DNA of 49,442 bases from a virus (IMGVR_UViG_2537561691_000009); one strand, 5' to 3'. Shown: positions 4,632-17,164, counted from the stretch's first letter. Translations and numbers: made by a program. Notes: generated by a model not told the origin, from the letters alone.

Positions 4632-4888
4632 TGTTTTTGGTTTTAACTGTTCCGCGTGCGCTCAGCCGCATTCACCACATCACAAAATTCACTTTAAAAA
4701 GGGCGGCAGAGCAGTCACGGAGTAAAACTGATACCGCCAAACGTCACCAGAAAATTGATAACAGAGGGCGTTGCAGCGGAGTTGTCACTTAAGCGTATGG
4801 TCAACCTGACAACCCGGTGTCCTCAACGGAGGAAGAAATAACCCCGCCATACTTACCGCCGCGCCATTTCGCGGAGTGCCACAACCGG

Positions 4889-5091: not shown

Positions 5092-5310
5092 TTAACGCGG
5101 GTATGTAACCATTCTGGCAATGCTTAATGCCGCTGCTTTTTCCAGCCTGGTGATATCCTGCTCCAGAGCGGACAGATTTTCAGCCTGCTTAGTCCTGGCT
5201 TCATTGGCCCATTTCAGATCCTGCGCTGCATTAATTTTCTGGCGCATCCACTCATAAAGTTCATCATCGGTATAGTCTGGCGCGATGATGACGGGTTCTC
5301 GTTTCTGCAT
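5092..5310 (-). CDS. Hypothetical early protein
   Basis: 72-aa ORF, coiled-coil-like composition. Confidence 0.5.
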   Translation of the reverse strand: MQKREPVIIAPDYTDDELYEWMRQKINAAQDLKWANEARTKQAENLSALEQDITRLEKAAALSIARMVTYPR

Positions 5311-5339
5311 ACTGATTCCTCGCGGTGCTGCTTCGCTTA

Positions 5340-5468
5340 TCAGCCGTTAGATTTTGCCGAGCTGGAAAGCGCCTGTTTAAACTCACTGAAGCTGAGAGCT
5401 TCTTCGCCTTCGGCAAGGCCTTCGAAGTATTCTTCGTAAGCCTTTTCCATGATTGTGTCGAAATCCAT
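5340..5468 (-). CDS. Small acidic protein, 42 aa (MDFDTIMEKAYEEYFEGLAEGEEALSFSEFKQALSSSAKSNG)
   Basis: Below the 60-aa track threshold; found by hand translation; AGGTGA-like SD upstream; tightly packed between flanking minus-strand ORFs. Confidence 0.4.
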   Translation of the reverse strand: MDFDTIMEKAYEEYFEGLAEGEEALSFSEFKQALSSSAKSNG

Positions 5469-5469
5469 A

Positions 5470-5706
5470 TCACTCACCTGAGTTTCTTTCCAGCCAGCGA
5501 CGGGCACCATTTTCGGTTTTAAACGTTTTGCTTTTGGTATACGTCATTGCGGTGAACGTGCCGTCCTGGTTGGGGAACACGCCACATACCAGAGATTCGC
5601 TGTTGCCAAGATCGATAGTATCCATGCTGACCTCATTTCCCCTTAACGCCGGGGGAGCGGAACAAAAACCTGCTGCATAGTTATTAAAGTTGAACCCTGC
5701 CGTCAT
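5470..5706 (-). CDS. Hypothetical small early protein (possibly starts at internal Met)
   Basis: 78-aa ORF; stop abuts the start of the 42-aa ORF. Confidence 0.4.
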   Translation of the reverse strand: MTAGFNFNNYAAGFCSAPPALRGNEVSMDTIDLGNSESLVCGVFPNQDGTFTAMTYTKSKTFKTENGARRWLERNSGE

Positions 5707-5828
5707 GTTCTTACGCCTCGGGCTGGCTACTTAACCCCTGACCACTGCCTGGTAACTCGAGGTATTGCCCTGTATTGTGTGGGACGGGATGGGTTGGTAT
5801 GGGAAAACTATAGGAAATGCCTAATTAC

Positions 5829-5850
5829 TTGTCAATAGGCTATGCCTAAT
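5829..5850. promoter_or_regulatory. Putative operator, left copy of 22-bp inverted repeat (ttgtcaataggctatgcctaat)
   Basis: Exact reverse complement of 6473..6494; extra gcctaat half-site-like copies nearby; flanks repressor gene. Confidence 0.55.
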
Positions 5851-5943
5851 AATTTGGGCGCGACCTAATAGGTGATGGTTTGTGGGAGAGGTAGTAGGAG
5901 TTAACTAACGGGAACTAGGAATTTCCCGTCGGACCATATAAGT

Positions 5944-6420
5944 TTAAGTTCCTGTCTTGGTGATGTTCTGGCTTTTCCGTTTTGATTCTTGATTTTTCAG
6001 ATAGTTAGCTACCTTCATTTCCATTGCGGCAATGTAGGCGCGAACGTCATGATCAACCCAACTAGGCTCCGTAGCATTTCCAGATAAGAGGAAAGCCACA
6101 ATTGCTCTTTTTTCATCAGAGGCGGCTTGATAAAGGCTGTTTATGTCTAAAAGTTCACTTTTTGTATCTGAAGTGGATGGGGTTGGTATGGGGGATTCGT
6201 TAAGCCCCCAATGCTCTGGACCAACCACATCAGAAAAGAAACGCCATAGTTCTGGAAGTTTGTCTTTACTTATCGAACCTTTCTTAATCCAGTCATGGAT
6301 TGATGGTGGTTGGACTTTGAAATGACGTGCGATTTCCGCCTTTGATTTGACGGCTCCTGATGCAATTTTTTTGTTAATGGCCTGCTCAATCGCTCGGCCT
6401 AAGTCTTTACCACTAAGCAT
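5944..6420 (-). CDS. Prophage repressor (RacR-like)
   Basis: 158-aa ORF divergent from a cro/ydaS-like gene; HTH-like region; flanked by operator-like inverted repeats. Confidence 0.8.
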   Translation of the reverse strand: MLSGKDLGRAIEQAINKKIASGAVKSKAEIARHFKVQPPSIHDWIKKGSISKDKLPELWRFFSDVVGPEHWGLNESPIPTPSTSDTKSELLDINSLYQAASDEKRAIVAFLLSGNATEPSWVDHDVRAYIAAMEMKVANYLKNQESKRKSQNITKTGT

Positions 6421-6472
6421 TGCTTAATAGTCTCCTATGCGCATCGCGTTAGGCAATCCCTACTCTCGATGT

Positions 6473-6494
6473 ATTAGGCATAGCCTATTGACAA
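6473..6494. promoter_or_regulatory. Putative operator, right copy of 22-bp inverted repeat (attaggcatagcctattgacaa) in divergent promoter region
   Basis: Exact reverse complement of 5829..5850; contains TTGACA; lies between the divergent repressor and cro-like genes. Confidence 0.55.
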
Positions 6495-6544
6495 TTGCAT
6501 TAGGCTAAGCCTAATATTGTTGCGTGTTTTTTGGAGTTCATTCG

Positions 6545-6868
6545 ATGAAAAAAGATAACTATTCATTCAAACGAGCTTGTGCTGTTGTCGGTGGGCAATC
6601 AGCAATGGCTAGGCTTTTAGGTGTATCTCCTCCAAGCGTAAATCAATGGATCAAAGGTGTACGTCAGTTGCCTGCTGAGAGATGTCCTGCGATTGAACGA
6701 GCAACAAAAGGTGGTGTCCTGTGTGAAGAACTTCGTCCTGATGTTGATTGGACATACTTACGACGCTCGTCATGTTATTCGCAGAATATGTCGATGAAGC
6801 AACCAAATGACGAAAACGATCATACCCGAAGCATCAAGAGGCAAATGATTCATGAAAATCAAACATGA
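6545..6868 (+). CDS. Cro-like HTH protein (YdaS-like)
   Basis: ORF divergent from repressor; HTH segment SAMARLLGVSPPSVNQWIKG; start taken at MKKDNY. Confidence 0.7.
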   Translation: MKKDNYSFKRACAVVGGQSAMARLLGVSPPSVNQWIKGVRQLPAERCPAIERATKGGVLCEELRPDVDWTYLRRSSCYSQNMSMKQPNDENDHTRSIKRQMIHENQT

Positions 6869-7277
6869 GCACATCCGCATGGCGATGAATGCTTGGGCAT
6901 ACCCTGATGGTGAGAAAGTTCCTGCAGCTGAAATAGCCCGGACTTATTTCGAACTGGGGATGACGTTCCCTGAACTGTACGACGACAGCCATCCGGAAGC
7001 CCTGGCCCGTAATACACAGAAAATTTTCCGTTGGCTGGATAAAGACACCCCTGATGCTGTTGAAAAAATTCAGGCTCTGTTACCGGCGATCGAAAAGGCA
7101 ATGCCGCCTCTGCTGGTGGCCCGTATGCGCAGTCACAGCTCTGAGTATTACCGGGAGATTGTCGAACGGCGGGATCGGCTGGTGAAGGATGTCGACGATT
7201 TTGTTGCGTCAGCGGTTGTTTTGTATGACCAGATGAATCGCGGCGGCCCGGCAGGGAATGCTGTGGTGATGCACTAA
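6852..7277 (+). CDS. YdaT-like protein (toxin-like partner of the Cro/YdaS-like gene)
   Basis: 141-aa ORF overlapping the upstream gene end; position and size match the Rac-type ydaS-ydaT pair. Confidence 0.65.
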   Translation: MKIKHEHIRMAMNAWAYPDGEKVPAAEIARTYFELGMTFPELYDDSHPEALARNTQKIFRWLDKDTPDAVEKIQALLPAIEKAMPPLLVARMRSHSSEYYREIVERRDRLVKDVDDFVASAVVLYDQMNRGGPAGNAVVMH

Positions 7278-10247: not shown

Positions 10248-10379
10248 ATACAGCGAACGCCATTGGTTTAGTTGGATATTTACTGTGCCGGACAAAAACG
10301 GTTTGCGGGGAAATCTTAGTTAAGTAGAATGACTGCGGGTGCTTGAGGCTATCTGTCTCAGGCATGAACACCAAAAGGC

Positions 10380-10460
10380 AGATAGAGAAAAGCCCCAGTT
10401 AACATTACGCGTCCTGCAAGACGCTTAACATTAATCTGAGGCCATATCTATGCTCTACAC
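10380..10460 (-). ncRNA. sok: Putative Sok-like antisense RNA region (approximate)
   Basis: Inferred from hok/sok locus architecture (antisense RNA overlapping mok start); boundaries not determinable from sequence alone. Confidence 0.3.
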
Positions 10461-10662
10461 ACGTAGGTTAGCCTCTTACGTGCCGAAAGGCAAGGAGAAG
10501 CAGGCTATGAAGCAGCAAAAGGCGATGCTAATCGCCCTGATCGTCATCTGTTTAACCGTCATAGTGACGGCACTGGTAACGAGGAAAGACCTCTGCGAGG
10601 TACGAATCCGAACCGGCCAGACGGAGGTCGCTGTCTTCACAGCTTACGAACCTGAGGAGTAA
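10450..10662 (+). CDS. mok: Mok (modulator of killing) overlapping reading frame
   Basis: 70-aa ORF in frame with and extending upstream of hok. Confidence 0.55.
   Translation: MLYTRRLASYVPKGKEKQAMKQQKAMLIALIVICLTVIVTALVTRKDLCEVRIRTGQTEVAVFTAYEPEE
10507..10662 (+). CDS. hok: Hok/Gef family type I toxin, 51 aa
   Basis: MKQQKAMLIALIVICLTVIVTALVTRKDLCEVRIRTGQTEVAVFTAYEPEE has Hok-family TM helix and conserved C-terminal motif; 5' leader resembles hok mRNA leaders. Confidence 0.85.
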   Translation: MKQQKAMLIALIVICLTVIVTALVTRKDLCEVRIRTGQTEVAVFTAYEPEE

Positions 10663-16623: not shown

Positions 16624-16699
16624 GGCCCTTTAGCTCAGTGGTGAGAGCGAGCGACTCATAATCGCCAGGTCGCTGGTTCAAATCCAGCAAGGGCCACCA
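16624..16699 (+). tRNA. tRNA with CAU anticodon (Ile2/ileZ-like, or Met)
   Basis: Cloverleaf parsed by hand: acceptor ggccctt/aagggcc, anticodon loop ctCATaa, T-loop ttcaaat, 3' CCA. Confidence 0.8.
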
Positions 16700-16706
16700 T
16701 CACATA

Positions 16707-16783
16707 CCGCCATTAGCTCATCAGGAAAGAGCGCCAGCCTTCGAAGCTGGTTGCGCGGGGTTCAAGTCCCCGATGGCGGTCCA
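16707..16783 (+). tRNA. tRNA-Arg (anticodon UCG)
   Basis: Acceptor ccgccat/atggcgg, anticodon loop ctTCGaa, T-loop ttcaagt, 3' CCA. Confidence 0.8.
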
Positions 16784-16796
16784 TTATCTGCATCAT

Positions 16797-16873
16797 GCGT
16801 TGTTAGCTCAGCCGGACAGAGCAATTGCCTTCTAAGCAATCGGTCACTGGTTCGAATCCAGTACAACGCGCCA
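16797..16873 (+). tRNA. tRNA-Arg (anticodon UCU)
   Basis: Acceptor gcgttgt/acaacgc, anticodon stem attgc/gcaat, loop ctTCTaa, T-loop ttcgaat, 3' CCA. Confidence 0.8.
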
Positions 16874-17111
16874 CACTTATTTTCCCTGGCTCGCTTTTGT
16901 GGGCCTTTTTTTTAAATGTCTCACAATTTAGGCGGTTGACTGTTGTCTGGTTTGCGGGGAGTTTGTTAAAAGAAACTGGCATGGTGAATCCCCCTGTGCG
17001 GAGGGGCAATCAGCGAGTAGGTATATGGGATAATCGCGGATTCAGGTGCTGGTACTGAATTCACCGGGAGGCACCCGGCACCATGCAATGGCACATAGCG
17101 CCACTCTCCAG

Positions 17112-17133
17112 CCCCTCTCCGGAGGGGCTGTTT
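17112..17133 (+). terminator. Possible terminator hairpin (cccctc-tccg-gagggg + T-rich tail)
   Basis: GC stem-loop followed by ctgtttat. Confidence 0.35.
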
Positions 17134-17164
17134 ATATTGATTTTGTCAGATGTGAGTAAACTGC

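What the first reader, a model, noticed from the sequence alone, without database searches (positions are those of the whole stretch)
5829..6494. Repressor gene flanked on both sides by a perfect 22-bp inverted operator-like repeat
Seen in sequence: ttgtcaataggctatgcctaat (5829..5850) is the exact reverse complement of attaggcatagcctattgacaa (6473..6494). The two copies bracket the repressor gene (5944..6420), with extra gcctaat half-site-like copies nearby and a TTGACA -35-like element embedded in each. Inference: left and right operator/promoter regions arranged symmetrically around the repressor, consistent with a RacR/YdaS/YdaT-type switch in which the repressor holds down a toxic cro-like/ydaT pair.
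Basis: partly seen in the sequence, partly recalled or inferred. Interest (0 to 1): 0.45.

Follow-up and report, generated by a model that had tools for sequence, protein, structure and literature searches.

The report
Rac prophage left and right operators
The inverted repeat is real: each copy is a RacR repressor binding site joined to the -35 box of one of two outward-facing early promoters of a Rac-type E. coli prophage, which is the ordinary lambda-like layout, though the left-hand copy is not described in the RacR papers I could search.

Summary
The perfect inverted repeat is 23 nt long (5829-5851 / 6472-6494) and brackets a 158-aa repressor that is 91% identical to K-12 RacR.

Each arm is a 15-bp RacR operator (TTAGGC-N3-GCCTA[A/T]) sharing one base with a TTGACA -35 hexamer.
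- The right arm is OR2 plus the -35 of PR (PydaST). This promoter was mapped and footprinted in K-12 (PMC9638921).
- The left arm is OL2 plus the -35 of a leftward promoter, TTGACA-17-TATAGT. It faces the DUF1391-ydfB-ydfC-dicF-dicB-exonuclease-xis-int genes.

All six matches to the operator consensus in the 49-kb window fall in these two clusters.

The module "operator, TTGACA, operator, TAATAT-like -10" flanks RacR-type repressor genes on both sides in 20 of 32 loci, from Enterobacterales to Betaproteobacteria.

Across E. coli alleles the two arms differ only in the operator's central 3 bases and the 2 outermost bases. The perfect match here is therefore an allele accident on top of functional constraint.

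No inverted cassette was found in 3,701 genomes.

It is a lambda-like OL/OR arrangement and a new member of a known kind, of low to moderate interest. The left operator and promoter of Rac is not described in the literature I could search.

The parts
5807..5812 (-). -10 hexamer TATAGT of the predicted leftward early promoter PL (predicted start near 5800, minus strand)
   Evidence: Promoter scan: TTGACA-17-TATAGT, 11 of 12 matches, one of only two hits in 5300-7000. It overlaps OL1. Invariant in four E. coli-group sequences.
5810..5824 (.). OL1, RacR operator (ATAGGAAATGCCTAA; 2 mismatches to TTAGGCNNNGCCTAA), lying between the -35 and -10 of PL
   Evidence: The same position is occupied in K-12 and in other genera.
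5829..5851 (.). Left arm of the perfect 23-nt inverted repeat, made of OL2 plus the PL -35
5830..5835 (-). -35 hexamer TTGACA of PL
   Evidence: TTGAC follows the operator in the downstream module of 22 of 32 loci.
5835..5849 (.). OL2, RacR operator (minus strand TTAGGCATAGCCTAT; 1 mismatch), sharing one base with the -35
   Evidence: The sequence TTAGGCATAGCCTA-TTGAC also occurs at this position in Morganella, Proteus and a Pseudomonadota MAG.
5854..5868 (.). Candidate weak third left site, OL3 (minus strand TTAGGTCGCGCCCAA; 2 mismatches; centre 19 bp from OL2 rather than 25)
   Evidence: The ATTAGGT half-site is invariant in four E. coli-group sequences. Function is inferred only.
5908..5929 (-). 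Hairpin just after the racR stop codon (7-8 bp stem, 8-nt loop), a candidate 3'-end or terminator element separating racR from OL/PL
   Evidence: Minimum free energy -10.9 kcal/mol, z -1.1; the K-12 counterpart gives -11.0 kcal/mol, z -1.9. One compensatory G:C to A:T change relative to K-12. Weak evidence.
5944..6420 (-). racR, 158-aa repressor (functional analogue of CI, no S24 peptidase domain)
6413..6427 (.). OR4 (CTAAGCATTGCTTAA; 3 mismatches), overlapping the racR start codon; this is 'operator 3' of PMC9638921
   Evidence: A site at -7 is present in most loci.
6449..6463 (.). OR3 (TTAGGCAATCCCTAC; 2 mismatches)
   Evidence: It corresponds to the TTAGGCAATTCCTA site of other genera.
6472..6494 (.). 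Right arm of the perfect 23-nt inverted repeat, made of OR2 plus the PR -35
6474..6488 (.). OR2, RacR operator (TTAGGCATAGCCTAT; 1 mismatch)
   Evidence: The RacR footprint in the K-12 racR-ydaS intergenic region covers the equivalent site.
6488..6517 (+). PR (PydaST): TTGACA (6488-6493), 18-nt spacer, TAATAT (6512-6517)
   Evidence: The same hexamers were mapped by primer extension and -10 mutagenesis in K-12 (PMC9638921).
6500..6514 (.). OR1, perfect RacR operator (TTAGGCTAAGCCTAA) between the -35 and -10 of PR
   Evidence: In K-12 this promoter region is the first protected at the lowest RacR concentration.
6545..6868 (+). ydaS (Cro analogue)
   Evidence: PF15943 at 3.8e-30 and P22_Cro at 1e-8; 85% identical to K-12 YdaS.
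6845..6862 (.). Candidate YdaT box ATGATTCATGAAAATCAA (1 mismatch to TTGATTN6AATCAA) at the ydaS/ydaT junction
   Evidence: The only match in the window. Its position corresponds to the footprinted OM site of CP-933P (PMC9986795). The count alone is not significant, since 3.2 matches are expected at 2 or fewer mismatches.
6852..7277 (+). ydaT (CII analogue), CP-933P allele
   Evidence: PF06254; E 1.2e-88 and near-identity to PDB 8bt1; only 31% identical to K-12 YdaT.

Best explanation
The two arms are the promoter-proximal parts of the left (OL/PL) and right (OR/PR) operator-promoter modules of a Rac-immunity lambdoid prophage. Each module reads, in the direction of transcription: operator O2 (TTAGGC-N3-GCCTAT), a TTGACA -35 sharing one base with O2, 4-5 bp, operator O1, and a -10 (TAATAT or TATAGT) overlapping the outer half of O1. 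RacR dimers on O1 and O2 occlude RNA polymerase at both promoters. On the right this silences ydaS (Cro-like), ydaT (CII-like) and the replication genes. On the left it silences the DUF1391-ydfB-ydfC-dicF-dicB-exonuclease-xis-int operon. The modules face outward from racR, so their shared 21-bp functional core (operator plus -35) appears as an inverted repeat. The extra 1-2 matching bases and the matching N3 spacer are an accident of this allele. What is shown experimentally in K-12, by others: the RacR footprint, the motif and the PR promoter on the right side, and the RacR octamer. What is shown here from sequence: an identical site and a near-consensus promoter on the left, and conservation of the two-sided layout across genera. 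What is inferred: RacR occupancy and repression at PL, and cooperative OL-OR looping by the RacR octamer across the 639 bp between the centres of OL2 and OR2.
For: (1) The repeat is real and far beyond chance. (2) All six operator-consensus matches in 49 kb lie in two clusters with 25-26 bp spacing. (3) The only two sigma-70-like promoters in 5300-7000 are the outward-facing pair, each with its -35 inside an arm. (4) The repressor is RacR. The RacR motif, DNase I footprint and PydaST (TTGACA/TAATAT) were determined on the homologous K-12 region, which differs from the right arm by one spacer base. (5) K-12 Rac has the same left module. Lowering RacR derepresses the leftward genes ydaG, ydaF, kilR, ydaE and racC 40-70 fold and xisR/intR about 100 fold. 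(6) A strict regex for the module finds it upstream on the opposite strand in 22 of 32 loci, downstream on the repressor's strand in 22 of 32, and on both sides in 20. It finds none in 640 shuffled loci. The only hit outside those two expected positions is the reverse-strand reading of the same palindromic downstream site in L016. The loci include two isolated phages and genera from Escherichia to Achromobacter and Herbaspirillum. Where cargo genes follow the repressor, the downstream module sits 0.7-2.5 kb away (L014 is intermediate at 266 bp). (7) In six E. coli alleles the arms vary only in the N3 spacer and the two outer bases, while the half-sites and TTGACA are invariant. (8) RacR is an octamer in solution, as CI is when it bridges OL and OR. 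The related prophage CP-933P has an experimentally regulated PL/OL downstream of its repressor operon.
Against: No binding or transcription data exist for the left module, in this strain or, as far as I could find, in K-12. OL1 here has two mismatches, including one in a half-site (AGGAA rather than AGGC). The published model places the RacR octamer on the four adjacent sites of the intergenic region, not on a loop. Published work attributes kilR silencing partly to Rho/NusG termination, so some leftward derepression could be indirect. The OL2-OR2 distance is not helically phased across genera (591-641 bp).
Confidence: 0.87

Rival explanations
1. The operators on each side act independently, with no OL-OR loop. 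The RacR octamer sits on the four adjacent OR sites, as the published model proposes, and a separate tetramer occupies OL1-OL2. This rival concerns only the looping step of the best explanation.
For: This is the published interpretation of the octamer. E. coli OR has four sites. The OL-OR distance is not phased across genera.
Against: Other genera have only three OR sites yet keep the two-site OL module. Lambda CI and PaaR2 octamers are linked to OL-OR bridging.
Confidence: 0.4
2. The perfect identity is kept up by DNA exchange between the arms. Either gene conversion acts between them, or the repeat is a substrate for inverting the racR cassette.
For: The E. coli OR2 unit resembles the OL2 of all genera (spacer CATAG) more than it resembles the OR2 of other genera. 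E. coli OR also carries one extra 26-bp unit, consistent with a past copying of an OL2-type unit into OR.
Against: A synthetic inverted-junction query found no place covering 80% or more of the query in any of 3,701 matching genomes, whereas the normal cassette occurs in 1,086. In other E. coli alleles the arms differ in the spacer and outer bases. That pattern fits selection on contact bases and does not fit ongoing homogenisation. At 23 bp the repeat is at or below the usual minimum for RecA-dependent exchange (general knowledge).
Confidence: 0.05
3. The arms are terminal inverted repeats of a small mobile element or cassette that carries the repressor gene.
For: The inverted repeats bracket a single gene, and immunity regions are mosaic.
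Against: There is no transposase and no target-site duplication. The arms coincide exactly with an operator plus a -35 box. The distance between modules varies from 60 bp to about 2.5 kb after the repressor's stop codon, with unrelated cargo in between. The left promoter leader is shared with many prophages of other immunity types.
Confidence: 0.02
4. The repeat is a chance coincidence.
For: None.
Against: The repeat is 23 nt against a simulated mean of 11 and maximum of 18. It is conserved across genera.
Confidence: 0.005

Closest known systems
Immunity region of the E. coli K-12 cryptic prophage Rac (racR-ydaS-ydaT; RacR operators and PydaST, PMC9638921, PMC5700373, PMC11014345)
   Same: RacR is 91% identical and YdaS 85% identical. 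The operator consensus is the same, OR has the same four sites, PR has the same TTGACA/TAATAT hexamers, and the left module is the same.
   Different: In K-12 the two arms differ by one spacer base, 21 of 22. The ydaT allele is unrelated in detail (31% identity). The left-arm genes differ: a Qin-like DUF1391-ydfB-ydfC-dicF-dicB set here, against ydaG-ydaF-sieB-kilR in K-12. The integration site is next to ompW. The published work describes only the right side.
Bacteriophage lambda OL/PL and OR/PR with CI, Cro and CII
   Same: The repressor gene lies between two outward-facing early promoters. Each promoter is overlapped by tandem dimer operators about 24-26 bp apart. The promoter-proximal sites on the two sides are near-identical. 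cro and cII analogues are transcribed divergently from the repressor. The repressor forms an octamer (lambda facts from general knowledge and as summarised in PMC8630535).
   Different: RacR has no S24 self-cleavage domain and its C-terminal fold is unrelated. There are four OR sites and two, possibly three, OL sites. OL lies only about 95-135 bp past the repressor stop codon, so any loop would span about 640 bp and enclose only racR, against 2.3-2.4 kb in lambda. YdaS is reported not to repress racR. No N-like gene is evident immediately left of PL.
CP-933P (E. coli O157:H7) switch: PaaR2, YdaS, YdaT with PR933P, PRM933P and PL933P (PMC8630535, PMC9986795)
   Same: The layout is the same, including an experimentally regulated PL/OL downstream of the repressor operon. 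The YdaT here is nearly identical to CP-933P YdaT (PDB 8bt1), and a YdaT-box-like site lies at the ydaS/ydaT junction.
   Different: The operator sequences differ (consensus GTTTAGTAA in CP-933P). The repressor is PaaR2, not RacR, and is followed by the paaA2-parE2 toxin-antitoxin pair before PL.

Membership tests
RacR repressor family (NCBIfam NF049929, equivalog) | Whole-protein score above the curated cut-off of 200 bits | tested here: met
   244.5 bits, E 4.5e-73; 91% identical to K-12 RacR.
RacR regulon / Rac-type immunity region | Operators matching (T/A)TAGGC-n3-GCCTA(T/A) in the racR-ydaS intergenic region, overlapping PydaST (TTGACA...TAATAT) | tested here: met
   OR1-OR4 at 6500, 6474, 6449 and 6413; PR at 6488-6517. 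Motif and promoter as published.
RacR regulon / Rac-type immunity region | Divergent ydaS-ydaT (Cro and CII analogues) | tested here: met
   PF15943 at 3.8e-30 and PF06254 at 8.2e-11. However, the ydaT allele is the CP-933P type.
RacR regulon / Rac-type immunity region | RacR physically binds these sites | not testable with these tools
   Binding was shown only for the K-12 intergenic region, by EMSA, ChIP-qPCR and DNase I. The left module has never been tested in the papers I could search.
Lambda-type two-operator (OL/OR) immunity architecture | Repressor gene flanked by two outward-facing early promoters, each overlapped by tandem repressor sites | tested here: met
   The arrangement is conserved on both sides in 20 of 32 loci.
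Lambda-type two-operator (OL/OR) immunity architecture | Long-range OL-OR cooperativity through a repressor octamer (DNA loop) | not testable with these tools
   The RacR octamer was shown by size-exclusion chromatography. Looping has not been tested.
LexA/CI-type self-cleaving repressors (Peptidase S24, PF00717) | C-terminal S24 peptidase domain | tested here: not met
   No Pfam family at E 0.01 or below for the 158-aa protein. Homologues of its N-terminal domain in other lineages do carry PF00717. This RacR therefore works like CI at its operators but is not a member of the self-cleaving family.
Type II toxin-antitoxin module (the Pfam names 'YdaS_toxin' and 'YdaT_toxin') | A toxin neutralised by a cognate antitoxin protein encoded in the same operon | not tested
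   The literature argues against this reading: YdaS and YdaT are Cro and CII analogues. Nothing in this window bears on toxicity.

The most novel reading that the evidence does not exclude
RacR-type repressors use a compact lambda-like loop. The RacR octamer bridges OL1-OL2 and OR1-OR2 across only about 640 bp and encloses nothing but its own gene and promoters, coupling repression of both early operons to autoregulation. The same DNA-binding domain and promoter-operator module has been carried from Enterobacterales to Betaproteobacteria while the C-terminal domain was swapped between a RecA-cleavable S24 type and the non-cleavable RacR type. The left operator and promoter would also be the undescribed direct route by which RacR controls kilR, recET and xis-int in K-12.
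Probability: 0.45. Interest if true: 0.4.

Novelty: new member of a known kind. Interest (0 to 1): 0.27.

Why it matters
This finding gives a simple, testable, direct mechanism for something the RacR literature reports without explaining. When RacR falls, the leftward Rac genes (ydaG, ydaF, kilR, racC, xisR, intR) rise 40-100 fold, although they lie "far away" from the studied intergenic region.

It also suggests that the published "octamer on four adjacent sites" model should be tested against an OL-OR bridging model.

Beyond that, it is the expected architecture of a lambdoid immunity region. It does not open a new kind of biology.

Tried and rejected
1. Inversion of the racR cassette through the repeat. 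A synthetic inverted-junction query found no place covering 80% or more of the query in any of the 3,701 E. coli genomes that matched parts of it. Rejected.

2. Ongoing homogenisation of the arms. Six alleles show the arms differing in spacer and outer bases. Rejected as the cause of the perfect match. A single ancient copying of an OL2-type unit into the E. coli OR remains possible.

3. A structured RNA in the 174-nt leader downstream of PL (5626-5799, minus strand). The fold is no better than shuffles (z = +1.67), and there is no Rfam hit there.

4. The hairpin after the racR stop as a clear intrinsic terminator. Stability is only modest (z -1.1 and -1.9), it lacks a good T tract, and the terminator scan did not call it. 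Kept only as a candidate.

5. Solved structures for RacR. None found.

6. Helical phasing of the OL-OR distance across genera. Distances range from 591 to 641 bp with no common phase. Uninformative.

7. The first Python run timed out and was repeated.

Full report
**1. Observation**

The two 22-mers are exact reverse complements, and the perfect repeat is in fact 23 nt long: 5829-5851 and 6472-6494. In 200 Markov simulations of 5400-7000 the longest perfect inverted repeat averaged 11 nt, with a maximum of 18. It is the only perfect inverted repeat of 16 nt or more with separated arms in the 49-kb window. The arms bracket the ORF 5944-6420 on the minus strand.

**2. What the genes are**

The window is an E. 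coli lambdoid prophage integrated next to ompW.

- The bracketed protein is 91% identical to K-12 RacR. It passes the NCBIfam RacR equivalog at 244.5 bits against a cut-off of 200.
- It has no Pfam domain, and in particular no S24 peptidase domain.
- Divergently transcribed are YdaS (PF15943, 85% identical to K-12 YdaS) and a YdaT (PF06254).
- That YdaT is only 31% identical to K-12 YdaT but nearly identical to the CP-933P YdaT of PDB 8bt1.
- To the left, all on the minus strand, lie DUF1391, ydfB, ydfC, DicF RNA, dicB, DUF1482, an 823-aa exonuclease, xis and int.

**3. Anatomy of the repeats**

The pattern TTAGGCNNNGCCTAA with 2 or fewer mismatches occurs six times in the window, against 1.3 expected. 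All six start at 5810, 5835, 5854 (left) or 6449, 6474, 6500 (right). A seventh, weaker site at 6413-6427 overlaps the racR start codon.

Centre-to-centre spacings are 25 bp (OL1-OL2), then 26, 25 and 36 bp (OR1-OR2-OR3-OR4).

The promoter scan finds only two sigma-70-like promoters in 5300-7000:
- a leftward one, TTGACA (5835 to 5830), 17-nt spacer, TATAGT (5812 to 5807), 11 of 12 matches;
- a rightward one, TTGACA (6488-6493), 18-nt spacer, TAATAT (6512-6517), 10 of 12 matches.

Each arm is therefore a 15-bp operator (O2) sharing one base with a -35 hexamer. That is 20 bp of functional sequence. O1 sits between the -35 and -10, and its outer half overlaps the -10.

**4. Link to experiment**

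Experiments on K-12 Rac have established the following.
- RacR shifts the 123-bp racR-ydaS intergenic region into three complexes and is enriched there in vivo (PMC5700373).
- DNase I footprinting gives the monomer motif ATTAGGC and the operator (T/A)TAGGC-n3-GCCTA(T/A). At the lowest RacR concentration, protection falls on the ydaST promoter (PMC9638921).
- PydaST was mapped as TTGACA/TAATAT and confirmed by mutating the -10 (same paper).
- RacR is an octamer by size-exclusion chromatography (PMC11014345).

The K-12 sequence equivalent to the right arm differs from this window by one base, in the operator's central spacer. The right arm is therefore an experimentally characterised element: OR2 plus the PR -35.

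**5. The left arm**

K-12 carries the same left module...ATAGGTAATGCCTAA TTGAT TGTCAA TAGGCTATGCCTAAT....

None of the RacR papers I could search describes sites or a promoter downstream of racR. They do report that lowering RacR raises ydaG, ydaF, kilR, ydaE and racC 40-70 fold and xisR/intR about 100 fold. They describe these genes as far from the repressor.

A RacR-controlled PL immediately left of racR explains this directly. The DNA of the left arm is identical to the right arm, so RacR must recognise OL2 as well as it recognises OR2. Occupancy and repression at PL are nevertheless inferred, not shown.

**6. Comparative test**

I collected 29 genomic loci encoding relatives of RacR and two isolated phages: Escherichia phage vB_EcoS-683R6 and Klebsiella phage KpF5. 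I searched these and the window with a strict regular expression for "operator, TTGAC, 3-9 bp, operator".

| Position of the module | Loci (of 32) |
|---|---|
| Upstream of the repressor, opposite strand (PR type) | 22 |
| Downstream of the repressor, same strand (PL type) | 22 |
| Both | 20 |
| Other position or orientation | 1, the reverse reading of the same palindromic site |
| In 640 shuffled loci | 0 |

The loci with both modules span Escherichia, Mixta, Morganella, Proteus, Erwinia, a Klebsiella phage, Achromobacter, Burkholderia, Pigmentiphaga, Sphaerotilus, Comamonas and Herbaspirillum.

In 12 of the 22 loci with a downstream module, the window included, the module lies 61-109 bp past the stop codon. 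These comprise all the Enterobacterales loci with 158-162-aa repressors except phage KpF5, plus the S24-type loci L016 and L025. In eight others (L015, L017, L018, L020, L024, L028, L031 and phage KpF5) it lies 0.7-2.5 kb away, and where annotation exists (KpF5) other genes intervene. This parallels rexAB in lambda and paaA2-parE2 in CP-933P. In L014 it lies 266 bp away and in L010 105 bp.

The two-sided arrangement is therefore a property of this repressor and operator family, not of this strain.

**7. Why the repeat is perfect here**

In six E. coli alleles the two arms differ only at the operator's central N3 spacer (CATAG, CACAG or CGTAG) and at the two outermost bases. The half-sites and TTGACA never vary. 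That is the signature of selection on contact bases plus a -35 box. The 23-nt perfection in this window is an allele accident.

E. coli OR has four operators (starting at -94, -68, -43 and -7 relative to the racR start), whereas other genera have three (-67, -42, -7). The extra 26-bp unit is the OL2-like ATTAGGCATAGCCTA next to TTGACA. This is consistent with a past copying of an OL2-type unit into OR, but that is an inference.

An inversion of the cassette through the repeat was tested and not found. No place covering 80% or more of the inverted-junction query turned up in any of 3,701 matching genomes, whereas the normal cassette occurs in 1,086 of 5,426 complete genomes.

**8. Mechanism**

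Most likely, RacR dimers bind cooperatively to O1 and O2 on both sides and exclude RNA polymerase from PR and PL. Weaker sites (OR3, OR4 over the racR start codon, and perhaps OL3) would serve autoregulation.

YdaS (Cro analogue) probably competes at the same sites. YdaT (CII analogue) would act at its own box at the ydaS/ydaT junction, 6845-6862.

The octameric state of RacR and the lambda and CP-933P precedents make an OL-OR bridge across 639 bp plausible. I rate this at about even odds against the published model of an octamer on four adjacent OR sites.

RacR lacks an S24 domain, so induction cannot work by RecA-stimulated self-cleavage. The signal remains unknown.

**9. Comparison and novelty**

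This is the K-12 Rac immunity region in a mosaic prophage and a lambda-type OL/OR architecture. It meets every sequence-testable criterion for the RacR family and for the two-operator layout. It fails the S24 criterion of the CI/LexA family, so it works like CI without being a member of that family.

The right half is already known. The left half is, to my knowledge and within the searchable literature, undescribed for RacR. It is expected by analogy and has been shown experimentally for the sister prophage CP-933P.

Noticed in passing
window 6545-7277: There is a mosaic joint inside the switch. RacR and YdaS are Rac type (91% and 85% identical to K-12), but YdaT is the CP-933P allele: near-identical to PDB 8bt1 and only 31% identical to K-12 YdaT. 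A YdaT-box-like site, ATGATTCATGAAAATCAA, lies at 6845-6862, in the position footprinted in CP-933P.
   Followed up: partly
proteins P0098, P0104, P0119; loci L015:3001-4101, L016:3001-4098, L025:3001-3744: The RacR-type N-terminal DNA-binding domain is fused to a Peptidase S24 (LexA/CI-like) C-terminal domain in other lineages (Pectobacterium, Achromobacter, Comamonas). In the three genomic loci (L015, L016, L025) these repressors keep the same operator sequence and the two-sided promoter-operator layout; the context of P0098, P0104 and P0119 was not examined. The E. coli RacR has a different, non-cleavable C-terminal domain.
   Followed up: partly
window 6413-6514 compared with L007-L012, L033: E. 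coli-group OR regions carry four operators (starting at -94, -68, -43 and -7 from the racR start) and other genera three (-67, -42, -7). The extra 26-bp unit is an OL2-like operator placed next to the -35.
   Followed up: partly
window 5626-5800 (minus strand): A leader of about 175 nt lies between the predicted PL start and the first gene. It is highly conserved with K-12 Rac although the first downstream genes differ (DUF1391 here, ydaG in K-12). The 302-nt inverted-junction query containing this leader (5700-5851 plus racR-proximal sequence) matched about 3,700 E. coli genomes, far more than the 1,086 that carry racR, but which half accounts for the excess was not checked. The leader is not predicted to be structured (z +1.67) and has no Rfam hit. 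Its function is unknown.
   Followed up: partly
window 5908-5929: A hairpin lies directly after the racR stop codon, with one compensatory G:C to A:T change relative to K-12. The motif TATGGTC(Y)(R)A(N)GG immediately after the stop codon recurs in Morganella, Proteus, the Klebsiella phage and a MAG. It could be a 3'-end or terminator element. The evidence is weak.
   Followed up: partly
window 4701-4752(-), 10337-10512(+), 16624-16870(+), 16950-17139(+): Rfam gathering-threshold hits: DicF sRNA in the leftward operon, sok antisense RNA (beside hokD), three tRNA genes, and the sRNA STnc100.
   Followed up: no
window 5791-5803 and 6180-6192: A perfect 13-nt direct repeat, GGGTTGGTATGGG. One copy is at the predicted PL start and the other is inside racR. 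The left copy is not conserved in K-12, so it is probably chance.
   Followed up: partly
L005 (JARKOR010000130.1) and L019 (JAMPER010000001.1): A contig labelled 'Candidatus Nanosynbacter' MAG carries an E. coli-type Rac immunity region, with RacR 91% identical and operators identical to K-12. An 'Alistipes senegalensis' MAG scaffold encodes a homologue of the RacR N-terminal domain. Both look like mis-binned or contaminant sequence.
   Followed up: no
L002 6584-7021 (strain EC24, 99.8% identical to the window): racR is annotated there as 438 nt (145 aa), against the 158-aa ORF in this window. Either the 3' end differs or the annotation does.
   Followed up: no
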